A DNA stretch of 64,000 bases from Cystobasidiomycetes sp. EMM_F5 (lineage: Eukaryota): NCBI GenBank assembly GCA_051047955.1, contig JBPGPT010000019.1:1-64000 (forward strand). The letters are read 5' to 3'. This document shows positions 50,697 through 55,443 of this stretch, piece by piece. The position numbers and the translations under genes were made by a program. How positions within the stretch are numbered: the first letter of the stretch is position 1; every line of letters starts with the position of its first letter. The notes beneath the pieces were generated by a model. The model was given only the letters and a program-made list of their open reading frames with translations. It had not been told where the DNA came from and made no database searches.

Positions 50697-51484
50697 ATGG
50701 TTCGCGTCACTTCTTCCTTCACCATCATCAGCGCAGGCCTGATCGCCAGCGTAGTGGCAGGTCCACTCCGCATTAAGCGCTCCGATGACCTTACGGCAGT
50801 CTTTCTTCCGTCCGGATCCAGCCTCGGCGCAGCTTGCCAGCAATGGCGAGGCGACTGCGTACAGTAAGTTCATGCGTCATGAATGTCAAACATGGCGACT
50901 TGACGAGACTTGCACCCACAGCCTTTCCGGCTACAACACTACGAGCATCTGCACAGAAGACAAATCAGTCACAGTGAGTTCTGACATTGTTACTACCATA
51001 GCGACGTTAGCTGACTGCGTGATTGCAGAATGCCGCCCTCGTCATGTGCAGCGCTGATGGTCACATCATCACTGGCGATGTCATCGAAGCTTTTGATTGG
51101 CAACAGGTCTACCCCCAAACTGCCAAGACTGCCCAGCAGAATGACGCTCCGGTTGCCGTCTACTTTCCCGCTGGCTCCAGGGGGTATCACCTAGGTTGCC
51201 AGGTTTGGGATGGCGAGTGTGTGCAGTGAGTACCGTAGGGCAACGATGGCCTTCTAATGAGTAGGCTGATAAACCCTTTGGACGTTCAGCCTTGCCGGCT
51301 ACAACACCACGAGCGTCTGCAAGCCAGACGCAGCAGTTGCAGTGAGTGCGCACGCTCACAGCTGTGCTATGCCACGACTTAATGACTGGCACCTCCGCAG
51401 AATGCCGCTTTCGTCCAGTGCAGTGCCAATGGCAACGTCATCACCGGCGACGTTATTGAGGCGCTCGGCTGGCAGAAAGTCTGA
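50697..51484 (+). CDS. Secreted two-domain Cys-containing pre-pro-protein (gene A)
   Basis: Introns 50864-50921, 50974-51028, 51226-51289, 51342-51400. Translation: MVRVTSSFTIISAGLIASVVAGPLRIKR-SDDLTAVFLPSGSSLGAACQQWRGDCVHLSGYNTTSICTEDKSVTNAALVMCSADGHIITGDVIEAFDWQQVYPQTAKTAQQNDAPVAVYFPAGSRGYHLGCQVWDGECVHLAGYNTTSVCKPDAAVANAAFVQCSANGNVITGDVIEALGWQKV*. Confidence 0.9.
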
Positions 51485-51789
51485 AAGCCGCGCAAGCACG
51501 ACGCAATGGTTTTACATTCCATGCGTCCTTATCAGCATAGAATCTAATGTTGGTAGCGCGTCCTTAGTTGCTGCGTGCAAATTGTTCGTTATAACGGATC
51601 TCAGCTCGCCTCCGTTGACCAGTACTCTGTGCGATGGCTACATACTCTTGTCACGAAGCCTTACCATAGTGGACTTCATCTACCTCTGTTCCGCAAAGAG
51701 GGGATGCGGAGAAGGACTTAGCGATGTGACTGCGTATGTGCACGGGAAGCTAATGCTAGCTGCTATCGTAGGTGGGGGACCACCAGAGG

Positions 51790-51895
51790 TCACCTTCCCT
51801 AGCGTCCTTGCCAGTGAACCGTATGCGAATTCGCTTCCCATAGTTGTAGATGACGAAGGTGATGGGACTGAAGCAGTGAAGGACCACCCAGTATA
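51790..51895 (-). pseudogene. Decayed fragment of the neighbouring MFS transporter 3' end
   Basis: The minus strand reads CFSPITFVIYNYGKRIRIRFTGKDAR, versus LFIPIPFVLYKYGKQIRMRSKNAR in the intact gene. The nucleotide match to 55757-55830 is clear. Confidence 0.8.
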
Positions 51896-52246
51896 TTGGT
51901 TTTCCTTACGTCAGTGCGGCTGAAGGTATTAGGGCTTCGTGATTAAACTAGTCAGTCTATACCCAAGCCTTTTCGCCGGTCAGCCAAAGCCCAATTGCAA
52001 CGTTTCGGAAGGGCTGCCGTCGATAGCAACGACAATCAGCTTTGTCCAGTTCAAAAGAAGTCGGAACCGCACGCCCGCATTCTGGTGCTCCGTATCAAGC
52101 CGCCTGCTGCCCAGGCTGTGGTCTCGACCTGCGGACGACGTCTAGCCATTAAAATGCCAGGGACTTTGCATGCGGCTGATAGTATGGTTGCTGTGCTGAT
52201 GCGTATGTCGCTAATATCCTCCGCCTCTAATCTCCACGTTGATGTG

Positions 52247-52278
52247 CTGCCCCGCCGATTCTGGCAGGATGGGCGGTG
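52247..52278 (+). promoter_or_regulatory. Conserved upstream element of gene B
   Basis: CTGCCCCGCCGATTCTGGCAGGATGGGCGGTG, followed near 52364 by a TATA-like CATAAAAGCAGGATGTAGC that matches genes A and C. Confidence 0.65.
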
Positions 52279-52479
52279 AGCGAACAGCCTGCATCCATTT
52301 GTGCCTGGACTCAAGTCGTTCCGAGACACAGCATGAAGACGTATTACGAGGAACGGCTGTGGCATAAAAGCAGGATGTAGCTTGCTTCCTTCCTCTCTTT
52401 CCATCAACAATCATCCATTCTTGCTTCACTCACTGCTCATAGTCTCCCTTCCACCTCAACACTATCTCTGATATCCACA

Positions 52480-53598
52480 ATGGTTCGCATTACCTCCTCC
52501 TTCATTGTTATTGGCGCAGGCCTGGTTGCCAGCGCAGTGGCTGGTCCACTTCGCTCGAAGCGAGGCGATAACCTTTCCGCCGTCTTCGTTCCCAAGGGTT
52601 CTAGCATCGGTCAAGGATGCGAACTCTGGGAGAGTCAATGCAAAACGTAAGTGAGCTAGTGACGCAATGTCTCTACATCCAAGAGCTTATCGTGAGTCTT
52701 GCCTCAGGCTTGCAGGTGTCAAGAGCGGAAGTGTCTGCATGGACGACCAGTCGGTCGAGGTAAGCTTTACGAAGCGATAACGCGAGGCTTTCGTCGCTAA
52801 GAGTGCCTGCACAGTCCGCTCTTCTTGTCACATGCATTGCCGACGGCAATACCATCACTGGCGATGTCATCGAAGCATACGGCTGGCACTCCGTCTATCC
52901 GGCACGAGTCGCAAAGCGGGACGAAGGCGTAGCTGCCGTCTACATTCACGAGGGTTCTAGCGGAGTCGGCCAAGGCTGCGACAGATGGGAACGCCAATGC
53001 AAAGGGTAAGAAGCTGTTCTCCCAATGTCGAAGACTCCGGCTCACACCTTCCTCAGTCTCGCTGATGGCGGCAATACTGGAGCAATCTGGTCGACATCAT
53101 GCGAAGCCGACTCTGCAGTAGACAATGCAATTCTAGTGTCATGCAATGCGAATGGCAACATCATCACTGGCGACGTAGCAGAGGCGTACGACTGGCATTT
53201 CGTTGCTCCGCAACAAGCTCATGCAAAGGCCGCGAAAAGAGATTTCATCCTTACGCCTGTCTACATCCCCGAGGGCTCTGACAGCGCAAGCCAGGGCTGT
53301 GACCGATGGGAACGACAATGCAAAGGGTAGGTAACGAGCGTGATGTGTTTAGACTTCTCAGTACTGACAGGGAAGCTGTGACCTGCAGCATTGTACAAGG
53401 AGGGAACCCTGACACGAAGTGGTCTACGTCCTGCAAAGCTGACTTAGTCATCGAGGTAAGCTGTTGACGATGCCTTGACTCGGACATTATCTTACCGTAC
53501 TTACTTCGCAGAATGCGATCCTTGTTTCATGTGCCTTGGGCAATTACTCAGTCACGAACGACGTCATGCAAGTGTATGGATGGCAAGCAGTGGTATAG
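52480..53598 (+). CDS. Secreted three-domain Kex2-processed repeat protein (gene B)
   Basis: Introns 52647-52707, 52760-52814, 53006-53056, 53327-53388, 53456-53511. Translation: MVRITSSFIVIGAGLVASAVAGPLRSKR-GDNLSAVFVPKGSSIGQGCELWESQCKTLAGVKSGSVCMDDQSVESALLVTCIADGNTITGDVIEAYGWHSVYPARVAKR-DEGVAAVYIHEGSSGVGQGCDRWERQCKGLADGGNTGAIWSTSCEADSAVDNAILVSCNANGNIITGDVAEAYDWHFVAPQQAHAKAAKR-DFILTPVYIPEGSDSASQGCDRWERQCKGIVQGGNPDTKWSTSCKADLVIENAILVSCALGNYSVTNDVMQVYGWQAVV*. Confidence 0.9.
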
Positions 53599-54390
53599 AC
53601 GAAAGTAGGCTTTTAGCGTGATAATATCTGCTTTTGCCGTTGTACACGCAATGTACACTGTGATGAGTCAGATGCGGCCTCGCTGCTTGCCATGATCTGT
53701 CAGTCTGACCACAGCGCTTTTCAACTCGGTCTGGCATCGTACCGCATTCTACGGGCGGTGGACGTTATTGTTCTCTCTGTTGTTCGGAAGTGATGCTGAA
53801 ATGCATGCGAAAATTGCACGCGCCGCGGCAGGGTAGCCTTGACCCTGTTACAGTACTATACTGTCTTCAGCCTATATACCGCCATGATTGATCCACCGAG
53901 ATTCATTCAAGCACTAAATGAGTCATACTCGGTACTGACTGAGCACGAGTCGGTCTCATACTAATGGATTAACCAACCCTCGTGTACTGGCTCAGAATGT
54001 CTGCCTGCAATAACTCCGAATCGTCAAACACAGCCCGGGCCTCCCTCAAACGCGGAATGAAGCAGCGACGACATCATTTCTACGCATCCGCAGATTTATT
54101 TCTGACGTCTCCTGACGCCCAGTGTGCAGCAACACTTCAAGTAAGCATCTCCAATGATGCAGCTTTCGCTTACCCTGGCATCTGACTAAGCACGACAGAA
54201 TTTCCGAATCCGGACGAGAGAAACACATTTTAGCGAATGCGGCAGGTAGCATTGCGACGATGCCTGTCTGCCGCATTTTGCTGCTTTCTCTTTGCTGTCC
54301 TGCTTAAGGACCGCTGAAATACAACAGGGGTTGAATTATTTGTGCCGATGCATGCCTCACACACTGATTTCCGCCAGATATGACCATCAC

Positions 54391-54422
54391 CCTGCCCGCC
54401 GCTTCTGGCAGCATGGGCGGTG
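54391..54422 (+). promoter_or_regulatory. Conserved upstream element of gene C
   Basis: CCTGCCCGCCGCTTCTGGCAGCATGGGCGGTG, matching the elements of genes A and B. Confidence 0.65.
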
Positions 54423-54661
54423 TCGACGAATAGCCTCGACGCATGCGGCCTCAACGCATTTGCGTTGACTGCATCTGACGAGAATGCAAATTCTTACATG
54501 ACACAGCATGCAGATGCTGGAACTGACCCATAAAAAGCGAGATGTAGCTCATACTCCTCCTCTTCTCTCTTCTCTTCAACAGAAACCACTTCTCCCTATC
54601 ACCAAGACTTCCGAACATTGACTTTCCGTCCACACTTTCCCTCAACAACTAGCCAATTAAC

Positions 54662-55443
54662 ATGGTTCGCATTACTTCTTCCATCACCATCATCGGCGCA
54701 GGCTTGATCGCCAGCGTAGTGGCTGGTCCACTCCGCCTTAAGCGCTCCGACTATCTCACGGCAGTCTACCTTCCCTTCTGGGTCCAGCTTTAACGCAGCT
54801 TGCCAGCAGTGGCAAGGCGACTGTGTCCAGTGAGTACATGCGAAGTGATTGTTAGACAACGTGACTGACGGAATTGCATCTTCAGTCTATCCGGCTACAA
54901 TACCACTAGCGCCTGCACAGAATACACAGGAGTCGCAGTAGGCCTTGGGTCATTTCCTCTATACCGTCGTTAGCTGACCGCATTCATTGTAGAACGCTGC
55001 CCTTGTTATGTGCAACGCCAACGGTCACATAATCACTGGCGACGTCATGGAAGCTTTCGATTGGAAGGCGGTCCATCAACCGACTGCAAAGACAGTAGTG
55101 TCCAACGATGCTCCTATCGCCGTTTACTTCCCCGCTACCGACAGAGGCTATCCCGTAGGCTGCGGCGACTGGAACGGCATGTGTGTGCAGTGAGTACCTT
55201 AGGCAGTGACGGCGTGTCGAAAGTGATCTGATTGAACTTGCATCTTCAGCCTAGCCGGCTACAATACCACTAGTGTCTGCAAGCCAGATGCTGCAGTTGC
55301 CGTGAGTCCGCAAGCTCACATCTGTACTACAACATGACTTACCGACTAAATTTCCGTAGAATGCCGCTTTCGTTGAGTGCAGTGCCCATGGCAACGTAAT
55401 CACTGGCGACGTTATCAAGATGCTCGGCTGGCAGAAAGTCTGA
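54662..55443 (+). pseudogene. Gene C: paralog of gene A with a +1 frameshift in exon 1 (young pseudogene or assembly error)
   Basis: Introns 54830-54885, 54938-54992, 55190-55249 and 55302-55359 are all intact. CTT CCC T TCT GGG TCC has one base more than gene A (CTT CCG TCC GGA TCC), giving TAA at 54791-54793. Removing one base restores a complete two-domain protein ending GDVIKMLGWQKV*. Confidence 0.8.

What the first reader, a model, noticed from the sequence alone, without database searches (positions are those of the whole stretch)
50697..55443. Tandem cluster encoding an unrecognised family of Kex2-processed, multi-domain small Cys proteins (candidate toxin/effector polyprotein system)
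Seen: three co-oriented genes (A 50697-51484, B 52480-53598, C 54662-55443), fragmented by 4-5 introns each so the ORF track misses them. Each encodes a signal peptide, a short pro-peptide ending GPLRxKR, and 2-3 copies of a ~70-aa domain. The domain consensus is AV[FY]xPxGS..GC-x2-W-x3-C..L.G....C..D..V.NA.LV.C.A[ND]G..ITGDV.EA.[GD]W..V, with four invariant Cys. With gene D there are 9 domains in 4 genes. Established: signal-pro-KR-domain-KR-domain is how Kex2-processed fungal polyproteins are built (KEPs, and viral killer preprotoxins such as Ustilago KP6 that yield ~80-aa disulfide-bonded alpha/beta subunits). Inference: the pattern suggests a small beta-alpha-beta-beta-alpha fold with the i/i+7 helix cysteines bridged to two strands. 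The products may be a diversified set of secreted antagonistic or effector proteins. I do not recognise the domain as any named family.
Basis: partly seen in the sequence, partly recalled or inferred. Interest (0 to 1): 0.9.

Follow-up and report, generated by a model that had tools for sequence, protein, structure and literature searches.

The report
Secreted four-cysteine repeat proteins, leaf yeast
A leaf-surface yeast carries a small co-regulated gene family for secreted proteins built from two or three copies of a previously unnamed 70-residue four-cysteine domain, probably cut apart by the Kex2 protease; what the pieces do is unknown.

Summary
The observation largely holds. The window is from the phyllosphere yeast Cystobasidiomycetes sp. 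EMM_F5. Genes A (50697-51484), B (52480-53598), C (54662-55443) and D (2366-3086, minus strand) splice through 15 GT-AG introns into pre-pro-proteins. Each has a signal-like N-terminus, a pro-site (GPLRxKR in A-C, GPIAMKR in D) and 2-3 copies of a ~70-aa domain with four invariant Cys and one Trp. That gives nine domains.

Corrections:
- Gene C has a 1-nt insertion and a premature stop.
- KR linkers separate domains only in B and D, not in A or C.
- The public annotation truncates A and D, splits B and omits C.

No Pfam, PDB-sequence or Atlas relative was found. The only other relatives are unnamed environmental ORFs.

A vs C gives dN/dS 0.20, and all four genes share a promoter motif.

Verdict: a real, lineage-restricted family of secreted, probably Kex2-processed proteins. 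The toxin role is untested.

The parts
50697..51484 (+). Gene A. Exons 50697-50863, 50922-50973, 51029-51225, 51290-51341, 51401-51484. 183 aa: signal, GPLRIKR, domains A1 and A2. The linker has no dibasic site. One N-x-T sequon (GYNTTS) in each domain.
   Evidence: Splice model. The public model EMMF5_004123 (P0015, 139 aa) uses the same introns 1 and 2 but reads through intron 3. Domain alignment.
52480..53598 (+). Gene B. Exons 52480-52646, 52708-52759, 52815-53005, 53057-53326, 53389-53455, 53512-53598. 277 aa: signal, GPLRSKR, domains B1, B2, B3 with linkers ending VAKR and AAKR. Predicted products are 80, 90 and 79 aa, pI 4.3-4.8, 4 Cys each.
   Evidence: The public annotation splits it into EMMF5_004124 (P0002, 137 aa, same introns 1-2) and EMMF5_004125 (P0001, 126 aa, wrong start and end).
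54662..55443 (+). Gene C, paralogue of A from a ~3.96-kb segmental duplication. Exons 54662-54829, 54886-54937, 54993-55189, 55250-55301, 55360-55443. The CDS is 553 nt, so the frame is broken. Downstream of the break both domains are intact in the shifted frame.
   Evidence: No public gene model was returned for it, only a 61-aa exon-3 ORF (P0004).
54770..54793 (+). Site of the 1-nt insertion in gene C exon 1 (relative to A, in a CCC run, about 54773) and the resulting in-frame TAA at 54791-54793.
   Evidence: A/C CDS alignment with a single gap column at 112. ORF 54653-54793. Not covered by any laid read or contig, so an assembly error is not excluded.
2366..3086 (-). Gene D. Exons 3086-2917, 2857-2806, 2749-2366. 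201 aa: signal, GPIAMKR, domain D1 (type I, 5 Cys), linker ending FDKR, domain D2 (divergent type II, no introns).
   Evidence: The public model EMMF5_004104 (P0005, 134 aa) lacks the signal exon. D2 is 51% identical to the last domain of environmental P0003.
50545..50556 (+). Shared upstream motif ACAGCATGVAGA, about 140-150 nt before the ATG and followed by a TATA-like CATAWAAAG. Copies at 50545-50556 (A), 52328-52339 (B), 54503-54514 (C) and 3229-3240 on the minus strand (D).
   Evidence: 4 matches in 64 kb, all upstream of the four genes; expected 0.06. Invariant block in the upstream alignment.
50433..50452 (+). Second upstream block TTCTGGCAGSATGGGCGGTG, about 200-260 nt before the ATG of A (50433), B (52259) and C (54403). 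Absent upstream of D.
   Evidence: 3 matches with up to 3 mismatches allowed; expected 0.01.

Best explanation
This is a small family of real, co-regulated genes in a phyllosphere yeast. It has been tandemly duplicated. The genes encode secreted pre-pro-proteins.

Proposed mechanism:
1. The N-terminal 21-22 residues act as a signal peptide, with cleavage after A-x-A.
2. In the ER each ~70-aa domain folds into a compact beta-alpha-beta-beta-alpha-beta (ferredoxin-like) unit. Two disulfides pin helix 1 (Cys i and i+7) to strands beta2 and beta3.
3. In the late Golgi a Kex2-type kexin removes the 7-residue pro-peptide at R-x-K-R (M-K-R in D). In B and D it also cuts the inter-domain linkers at KR.
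4. B therefore yields three acidic units of about 8.4-9.4 kDa and D yields two of about 9.4 kDa. A, and C when it was intact, yields one glycosylatable two-domain protein of about 16 kDa.

Shown here: the gene structures, the domain repeats, the invariant Cys and Trp, the conserved KR positions, purifying selection and the shared promoter motif. Inferred: secretion, disulfide pairing and Kex2 cleavage.

The role is not established. My leading guess, at about 25-30%, is interference with neighbouring microbes on the leaf surface (mycocin-like). The rest of the probability is spread over the other extracellular roles listed as rivals.
For: - Gene models: 15 of 15 introns are GT-AG, 51-64 nt, and restore one frame in A, B and D.
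- Homologous intron positions recur: intron 1 in 8 of 9 domains, intron 2 in 7 of 9.
- The order of the three domain segments (called p1, p2, p3 in the full report) produced by splicing is encoded without interruption in B2 (p2-p3), in D2, and in the environmental ORF P0003. This supports the splicing independently of any predictor.
- The funannotate models P0002 and P0015 use the same first two introns. They are ab initio predictions; the genome paper reports no RNA data (whole text read).
- Coding constraint between A and C: dS 0.66, dN 0.13, omega 0.20. Domain 1 has omega 0.14. Introns are 66% identical against about 80% for the CDS.
- Signal-like N-termini: mean Kyte-Doolittle hydropathy of residues 4-21 is 1.6-2.0.
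- KR precedes 7 of 9 window domains and 3 of 3 domains in the environmental relatives, always 4-9 residues before strand beta1.
- R-x-K-R and aliphatic-P4 KR sites fit the Kex2 specificity summarised in bioRxiv 10.1101/2020.05.27.120113 (passages read).
- Fold: two independent AlphaFold runs give the same beta-alpha-beta-beta-alpha-beta units. In-domain pLDDT block means are 72-85 for P0002 residues 31-100 and 71-82 for P0003 residues 71-140. P0003 residues 151-234 give 64-82, with the final four-residue block at 60.
- In the P0002 model the cysteines fall in H1 (47, 54), beta2 (66) and beta3 (80).
- Co-regulation: ACAGCATGVAGA occurs 4 times in 64 kb, once upstream of each gene, against 0.06 expected.
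Against: - There is no expression, secretion or cleavage evidence. No RNA holder was listed and the genome paper has no RNA-seq.
- No SignalP was available, so the signal peptide is judged by eye and by hydropathy only.
- The AlphaFold alignments are shallow (13-14 rows, many of them fragments). Mean pLDDT is only 61-66.
- A and C lack inter-domain KR, so 'polyprotein' applies to only part of the family.
- Gene C is broken in the assembly.
- D1 contains RR inside the domain (WDRRC) and after it (WSRR). If all dibasic sites were cut, D1 would be destroyed.
- For the antagonism guess: the domains are acidic, omega is low rather than high, and structure searches list no toxin.
Confidence: 0.7

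Rival explanations
1. Chromosomally encoded killer toxin (mycocin) system. The released KP6-topology units, alone or in combination, damage competing yeasts or fungi on the leaf.
For: - The predicted topology is that of the KP6 fold: two helices on one face of a four-stranded antiparallel sheet, with two split beta-alpha-beta crossovers (definition from passages of PMC12382754).
- The precursor logic is like killer preprotoxins: signal, pro-peptide and KR-separated units (architecture of the preprotoxins recalled, not checked here).
- KP6-fold proteins are reported as widespread in asco- and basidiomycetes, and Zt-KP6-1 inhibits fungal growth (PMC12382754, section 3.3 and Table 1 passage).
- The niche is a competitive one, the phyllosphere.
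Against: - The cysteine placement differs from Zt-KP6-1. There is no Cys in beta1 or H2, and both helix cysteines are in H1.
- A vs C omega of 0.20 shows no arms-race signature.
- No immunity gene is evident. The neighbours are Clr2-like and MFS genes.
Confidence: 0.22
2. Secreted inhibitors or decoys of subtilisin/kexin-type proteases. Each unit would be a ferredoxin-like body plus a C-terminal tail ending in KR, which mimics a protease pro-domain (I9-like) and occupies the active site.
For: - After linker cleavage B1, B2 and D1 would carry C-terminal ...AKR or ...DKR tails.
- Tandem inhibitor domains released from one precursor are known in other systems (recalled, not checked here).
Against: - These matches rank 30th-49th and are not separated from unrelated folds.
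- Pfam lists no I9 match even at E <= 10.
- A, C and the last domains have no such tail.
- Kex1-type trimming would remove the KR (recalled).
- This is pure inference.
Confidence: 0.07
3. Extracellular structural or surface-conditioning proteins (cell-wall, adhesion or biofilm matrix) or plant-facing effectors of an epiphyte, with no antagonistic activity.
For: - The proteins are secreted, acidic and repeat-built, with N-glycosylation sequons in A and C.
- Purifying selection.
- Kex2-processed repeat proteins include non-toxic surface-active and signalling peptides (PMC6339444, passages; the Rep1 example is recalled).
Against: - There is no GPI-type hydrophobic C-terminus, no Ser/Thr-rich stalk and no known adhesin or hydrophobin pattern.
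- Compact disulfide-locked globular units are not typical matrix repeats.
Confidence: 0.2
4. Not functional genes: decaying duplicated sequence or chance ORFs.
For: Gene C is frameshifted. There is no transcript evidence. The public annotation is fragmentary.
Against: - Omega is 0.20 and exons are better conserved than introns.
- Cys and Trp are invariant across 11 aligned domains, including those of another organism.
- All splice sites are intact in A, B and D.
- The promoter motif is conserved.
- Environmental homologues have open frames.
Confidence: 0.03

Closest known systems
KP6 fold proteins (UmV-KP6 alpha/beta killer toxin subunits; Zymoseptoria tritici Zt-KP6-1, PDB 6QPK/4GVB as cited in PMC12382754)
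   Same: Small secreted fungal units of about 70-90 aa. Predicted beta-alpha-beta-beta-alpha-beta sandwich with both helices on one face. Disulfides tie helix to sheet, and one bond (H1 to beta3) is plausibly analogous. The precursor is cut at dibasic sites.
   Different: No sequence similarity, and no KP6 entry in any listed structural match. Both helix cysteines lie in H1, with partners in beta2 and beta3, and there is no beta1-H2 bond. There are two to three homologous units per precursor rather than alpha-gamma-beta. Activity is unknown.
Kex2-processed repeat proteins (KEPs; Le Marquer et al. 2019, PMC6339444)
   Same: Signal peptide followed by repeated units separated by KR, in gene B and weakly in D. 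Fungal origin and extracellular destination.
   Different: The KEP pipeline asks for at least 4 fragments and at least 3 repeated fragments, with the C-terminal fragment set aside. Only B approaches this (pro + 3 units), and A, C and D do not. The units here are folded 79-90-aa disulfide domains rather than short peptides (that KEP peptides are typically short is recalled). Two of the four genes have lost the inter-unit KR.
Kex2-processed pro-domain (K2PP) effectors (SnTox3, ToxA, SIX1/4/6; bioRxiv 10.1101/2020.05.27.120113)
   Same: Cysteine-rich secreted fungal proteins with an N-terminal pro-region ending in a Kex2 motif directly before the folded part.
   Different: The pro-peptide here is only 7 residues, against tens of residues in the cited effectors (construct boundaries). 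The organism is an epiphytic yeast, not a known pathogen. The folded part is a repeated ferredoxin-like unit, not the SnTox3 beta-barrel.
[not shown]
   Same: Same size and the same beta-alpha-beta-beta-alpha-beta topology. 62-64 residues align at 2.5-3.0 A, and a Cys sits at the N-terminus of helix 1.

Membership tests
KP6 fold family | Four-stranded antiparallel sheet with two antiparallel helices on one side; two right-handed split beta-alpha-beta crossovers (PMC12382754) | tested here: met
   AlphaFold secondary-structure order is E-H-E-E-H-(E) in P0002 residues 32-99 and in P0003 residues 71-138 and 152-227, at pLDDT about 71-85. Sheet order and handedness could not be read because no coordinates are available. 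The same order is matched by ferredoxin-like chains over 62-70 residues.
KP6 fold family | Two disulfides linking each of the two helices to the sheet (beta1-H2 and H1-beta3 in Zt-KP6-1) | tested here: not met
   The invariant Cys lie in H1 (two), beta2 and beta3. There is none in beta1 or H2 (definition). At most one bond is analogous.
KP6 fold family | Detectable structural similarity to solved KP6 members | tested here: inconclusive
   [not shown]
KP6 fold family | Antifungal activity | not testable with these tools
   Needs protein and bioassays.
KEP (Kex2-processed repeat protein) | Predicted signal peptide, no transmembrane segment | tested here: inconclusive
   The N-termini are signal-like by hydropathy and have an A-x-A site. 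SignalP and TMHMM were not available.
KEP (Kex2-processed repeat protein) | At least 4 fragments after KR/RR cleavage and at least 3 repeated fragments, with the C-terminal fragment excluded (PMC6339444 methods) | tested here: not met
   After the signal, A gives 2 fragments, D gives 3 at KR (more if RR is counted), and B gives 4 (pro + 3 units). With the C-terminal unit excluded B has only 2 repeated fragments.
K2PP effectors | [quoted passage not shown] | tested here: met
   GPLR[ISL]KR or GPIAMKR lies directly after the predicted signal cleavage site in 4 of 4 genes. Actual cleavage was not tested.
K2PP effectors | Role as a virulence effector of a plant pathogen | not testable with these tools
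   EMM_F5 is described only as a leaf-surface isolate.
HMA (heavy-metal-associated) domain | M/L-x-C-x-x-C metal-binding loop | tested here: not met
   The domain has C-x2-W-x3-C (C-x6-C) instead. Pfam HMA was not reported even at E <= 10.
Peptidase inhibitor I9 / subtilisin pro-domain | Sequence membership (Pfam) and inhibitory C-terminal tail | tested here: inconclusive
   [not shown]
Sel1-like repeat | Alpha/alpha repeat of about 36-44 residues | tested here: not met
   The profile cross-hits to P0007-P0010 cover only profile positions 6-29 (E 4.6e-6 to 8.3e-4, summed over 4-6 repeats). That segment is predicted here as strand + turn + short helix holding an invariant Cys.

The most novel reading that the evidence does not exclude
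The cluster is the first molecularly defined mycocin system of a cystobasidiomycete yeast. It would be a chromosomal 'toxin cassette' family in which one precursor is cut by Kex2 into several paralogous two-disulfide ferredoxin-like subunits. These would act together, as KP6 alpha and beta do, against competing leaf-surface fungi. The uncut two-domain A form would be a fused variant. A common promoter element (ACAGCATGVAGA) would switch the set on.
Probability: 0.15. Interest if true: 0.75.

Novelty: new variant of a known kind. Interest (0 to 1): 0.42.

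Why it matters
If the products are secreted and processed as inferred, this defines a new sequence family of small disulfide-locked fungal proteins. It comes from a yeast lineage (Microsporomycetaceae) described as having no other genome resource. It would add a folded multi-domain case to the Kex2-processed precursor theme, and it would be a concrete candidate for the poorly characterised antagonism of basidiomycetous leaf yeasts.

Practically, it also shows that the public annotation of this genome mis-models all four loci: A and D are truncated, B is split and C is missing. Secretome surveys based on that annotation would therefore miss or misread the family.

If the function turns out to be mundane, it remains one more lineage-specific family of small secreted cysteine-rich proteins, of which fungi have many.

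Tried and rejected
- The whole genome is not held, so family size outside the window and the presence of KEX2 could not be checked.
- Protein searches. The search for homologous proteins 'longer' found none. 'near' found only the window's own models. With alignment A5, 5 of 4514 candidates scored: three own models, P0003 and P0006.
- The HMMER scan of 1.84 billion representatives gave 10 hits at E <= 1e-3: 4 own, 2 environmental and 4 Sel1-repeat proteins, the last judged to be chance motif resemblance.
- The ESM Atlas gave no usable hit, twice.
- Pfam gave nothing at or near its cut-off for 5 exon translations or 5 proteins. The PDB sequence profile search gave nothing below E 0.3.
- The JGI metagenome locus scan failed with alignment A5 (no conserved stretch). 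With P0003 it matched 76 pattern stretches, none confirmed. No genomic context of the environmental relatives was therefore obtained.
- Sequencing runs: no RNA holder was listed, and only two DNA holders with small shares. Laying 4 runs on 50400-55600 placed only pieces at 54866-55016 and 54997-55162 (identical) plus short spurious bits. The frameshift site of gene C was not covered, so it could be neither confirmed nor refuted.
- MAFFT misplaced the 17-aa middle exons (p2) and the exon-1 pieces (A2, A4). Those alignments were dropped. The profile search therefore used only the last third of a domain (p3), the linker and the first third of the next domain (p1) (A3).
- The NG86 script stopped at the linker, which is saturated, so domain 2 and linker values were not obtained.
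- KP6, KP4 and SMK: absent from all listed structural rows. This is not proof of a different fold.
- Earlier-findings look-ups returned nothing.
- Literature searches for mycocins of Cystobasidiomycetes gave no directly relevant paper in the listing. I found no description of this family in print in searches. Those searches are by words only and cannot find a family by sequence.

Full report
ORGANISM AND SETTING

Proteins encoded in the window are on record as hypothetical proteins EMMF5_004104 and EMMF5_004123-004125 of Cystobasidiomycetes sp. EMM_F5, on a 319,590-nt contig (taxonomy). I read the whole genome announcement, PMC12697161. It describes a yellow-orange yeast washed from Magnolia grandiflora leaves, probably Microsporomycetaceae, with no sister genome among 27 Cystobasidiomycetes. 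Sequencing was Illumina only at 142x, and annotation was ab initio with funannotate. No RNA data are reported. No whole genome is held for this window.

CHECKING THE OBSERVATION

I built splice models from the raw sequence.
- Gene A (50697-51484, +) has 4 introns and encodes 183 aa.
- Gene B (52480-53598, +) has 5 introns and encodes 277 aa.
- Gene C (54662-55443, +) has 4 introns.
- Gene D (3086-2366, -) has 2 introns and encodes 201 aa.

All 15 introns are GT-AG and 51-64 nt long.

All four proteins begin MVR, followed by a hydrophobic core (mean Kyte-Doolittle 1.6-2.0 over residues 4-21) ending A-x-A-G. A pro-site follows: GPLRIKR in A, GPLRSKR in B, GPLRLKR in C and GPIAMKR in D.

Behind the pro-site come 2 (A, C, D) or 3 (B) copies of a ~70-aa unit. 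I divide the unit into three segments:
- p1, the first third, holding the helix-1 cysteine pair C-x2-W-x3-C;
- p2, the middle, holding the third Cys;
- p3, the last third, holding the fourth Cys and the ITGDV motif.

An alignment of the nine window units with two units of an environmental relative shows four invariant Cys and an invariant Trp (C-x2-W-x3-C ... C ... C).

A tblastn with one p3 segment found 8 type-I units. D2 is a divergent type-II unit, 20-25% identical to the others. A six-frame HMM scan of the whole window found no further copy. All 14 fragments at E <= 1e-3 lie in the four genes, and the best fragment outside them has E 0.08.

SUPPORT FOR THE SPLICING

Three lines support the splicing without RNA data.
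(i) Intron positions and phases recur from unit to unit. The first intron is present in 8 of 9 units and the second in 7 of 9.
(ii) Where an intron is missing (B2 p2-p3, all of D2) the DNA encodes the same junction continuously.
(iii) The environmental ORF P0003 and its cluster mates encode p1-p2-p3 of two full units in one open frame.

The funannotate models P0002 and P0015 use the same first two introns in B and A, but they are predictions, not data.

(1) Gene C has one extra base in exon 1 relative to A. There is a single gap column, 112, in the CDS alignment, and the CDS is 553 nt. The frame ends at TAA 54791-54793. Everything downstream is intact in the shifted frame. With A vs C omega at 0.20, this is either a recent inactivation or an assembly error. 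No laid read or contig covered the site.
(2) KR precedes 7 of 9 window units. The A1-A2 and C1-C2 linkers (…AKTAQQND…, …AKTVVSND…) have no dibasic site, so only B (VAKR, AAKR) and D (FDKR) are polyproteins in the sense proposed.
(4) The public annotation truncates A at intron 3 (P0015, 139 aa). It splits B into P0002 and P0001, gives D a false start (P0005), and returned no model for C.

ARE THE GENES UNDER SELECTION AND CO-REGULATED?

A and C are copies about 3.96 kb apart. Nei-Gojobori over 182 codons gives dS 0.66, dN 0.13 and omega 0.20. Domain 1 alone gives omega 0.14. The script stopped at the saturated linker, so domain 2 was not computed.

Introns are 66% identical and 3' flanks 63%, against about 80% for the CDS. 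The 5' end is unusually conserved. The signal and pro codons have dS 0.14, the upstream 300 nt are 77% identical, and blocks within it reach 88-94%.

All four genes carry ACAGCATGVAGA about 140-150 nt upstream of the ATG. There are 4 matches in 64 kb, only there, against 0.06 expected; the block is invariant. It is followed by a TATA-like element. A, B and C also share a 20-mer further upstream: 3 matches against 0.01 expected.

Neighbouring genes are a Clr2-like pair upstream and an MFS transporter downstream. They give no functional hint.

RELATIVES

- Pfam: no family at or near its cut-off, for 5 exon translations and 5 proteins.
- PDB sequences: nothing below E 0.3.
- ESM Atlas: no usable hit, twice.
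- Word-seeded searches returned only the window's own models plus P0003 and P0006.
- A 62-position profile (p3-linker-p1, alignment A3) was run by HMMER over 1.84 billion representatives. It gave 10 hits at E <= 1e-3: four own products; P0003 (234 aa; cluster of 4, from ENA and Logan contigs of 1-5 kb); P0006 (80 aa; cluster of 2); and four long Sel1-repeat proteins. The Sel1 proteins match only profile positions 6-29 through a CxANGxGVxKDxxEAxxW-like motif, summed over 4-6 repeats. I regard this as chance.

P0003 has a partial unit, then AKR, a type-I unit (49% identical to B1), then RKR and a type-II unit (51% identical to D2). The D-type architecture and the KR linkers are therefore shared with at least one other, unidentified organism. 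A JGI metagenome scan found no locus, so its gene context is unknown.

None of the searches returned a protein attributed to another named fungus. With no sister genome available, 'lineage-restricted' may partly reflect sampling.

FOLD

Two AlphaFold runs on shallow alignments gave modest overall confidence but consistent domains.
- P0003 (14 rows): mean pLDDT 66.0. Block means are 71-81 over residues 71-140 and 64-82 over residues 151-230, with the final four-residue block at 60.
- P0002 (13 rows): mean pLDDT 61.3. Block means are 72-85 over residues 31-100.

Each unit reads strand-helix-strand-strand-helix-(short strand). In P0002 Cys47 and Cys54 lie in helix 1 (residues 43-58), Cys66 in beta2 and Cys80 in beta3. 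This fits two disulfides from one face of helix 1 to the two central strands. That pairing is inference, because coordinates are not exposed.

Structure searches:
- Foldseek found nothing at E <= 0.001 in PDB, for either model, or in BFVD.

The lists are a cross-section of ferredoxin-like folds: HMA, ACT, RRM, S6, NGN and subtilisin/PCSK9 pro-domains. By the tool's own calibration this may be only a common arrangement. No KP6, KP4 or SMK entry is listed.

COMPARISON WITH KNOWN KINDS

KP6 fold. From passages of PMC12382754, the KP6 fold is two helices on one side of a four-stranded sheet, two split beta-alpha-beta crossovers, and two disulfides tying the helices to the sheet (beta1-H2 and H1-beta3 in Zt-KP6-1). 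Section 3.3 of that paper reports that it is widespread in fungi. The unit here shares the secondary-structure order and possibly the H1-beta3 bond. It places its other bond differently and is not retrieved as KP6-like. So it may work like a KP6-type unit, but membership is not shown.

KEPs. Against the KEP pipeline definition (PMC6339444 methods passages), only B comes close.

K2PP. The N-terminal pro-site fits the K2PP pattern and the reported Kex2 preference: Arg at P1, Lys or Arg at P2, aliphatic at P4 (bioRxiv 10.1101/2020.05.27.120113, passages). A-C have R-x-K-R.

MOST LIKELY MECHANISM

The inferred steps are:
1. co-translational ER entry;
2. oxidative folding of each unit;
3. kexin cleavage of the 7-residue pro-peptide and, in B and D, of the linkers;
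4. secretion of acidic units (pI 4.3-4.8) of 79-90 aa, or of a two-domain 16-kDa glycoprotein from A.

I put about 0.7 on this molecular picture. For the role, antagonism against other leaf microbes is the leading single guess, at about 0.2-0.3. Nothing found here favours it over a protease-inhibitor, surface or host-facing role. The low omega and the acidic charge do not point to an arms-race toxin.

VERDICT

This is a real, previously unnamed and apparently lineage-restricted family of secreted multi-domain four-Cys proteins, with a conserved Kex2 logic and a shared promoter element. It is a new variant of a known kind (Kex2-processed small secreted cysteine proteins with a KP6/ferredoxin-type topology). 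It is not a demonstrated toxin system. Interest is moderate.

Noticed in passing
window 50380-50780, 52163-52565, 54345-54745: The 5' ends of A and C are much better conserved than the gene bodies. The promoter has blocks at 88-94% identity, and the signal and pro codons have dS 0.14, against dS 0.93 in domain 1. This suggests gene conversion or strong regulatory constraint at the 5' end.
   Followed up: partly
window 2366-3086, 50697-51484, 52480-53598, 54662-55443: The public (funannotate) models mis-handle all four loci. EMMF5_004123 is truncated at intron 3. EMMF5_004124 and 004125 are two halves of one gene. EMMF5_004104 lacks the signal exon. No model was returned for gene C.
   Followed up: yes
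profile A3 positions 6-29 (p3 segment, e.g. window 51044-51115): The p3 motif (CxANGNxITGDVxEAxxW) draws weak HMMER hits to multi-repeat Sel1-like proteins P0007-P0010 (E 4.6e-6 to 8.3e-4). This is probably convergence on a G-x-G-V-x-x-D-x-x-E-A-x-x-W turn-helix motif.
   Followed up: partly
window 50922-50973, 51290-51341, 54886-54937, 55250-55301: A1, A2, C1 and C2 all carry a GYNTTS sequon (N-x-T) in the loop after helix 1. B and D units lack it. The uncleaved two-domain proteins may therefore be the glycosylated members.
   Followed up: no
window 54866-55162: Pieces identical to gene C (151 and 166 nt, 0 differences) occur in contigs of a phyllosphere metagenome run (X2) and of a run labelled organism A (X1). 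The same or a near-identical strain is therefore present in other public leaf-associated data.
   Followed up: partly
window 47797-49754 and 56946-57785: Flanking genes are a Clr2-like transcription-silencing protein (two ORF pieces, + strand) upstream of A and an MFS_1 transporter (- strand) downstream of C. Further on lie an A_deamin-domain ORF and a prenyltransferase alpha-alpha toroid gene.
   Followed up: no
window 2917-3086 (gene D exon 1) and 2669-2749: D1 has a fifth Cys (LPTCLH) before helix 1. It also has RR dipeptides inside the unit (WDRRC) and after it (WSRR). If kexin cut at RR, D1 would be nicked within helix 1.
   Followed up: no
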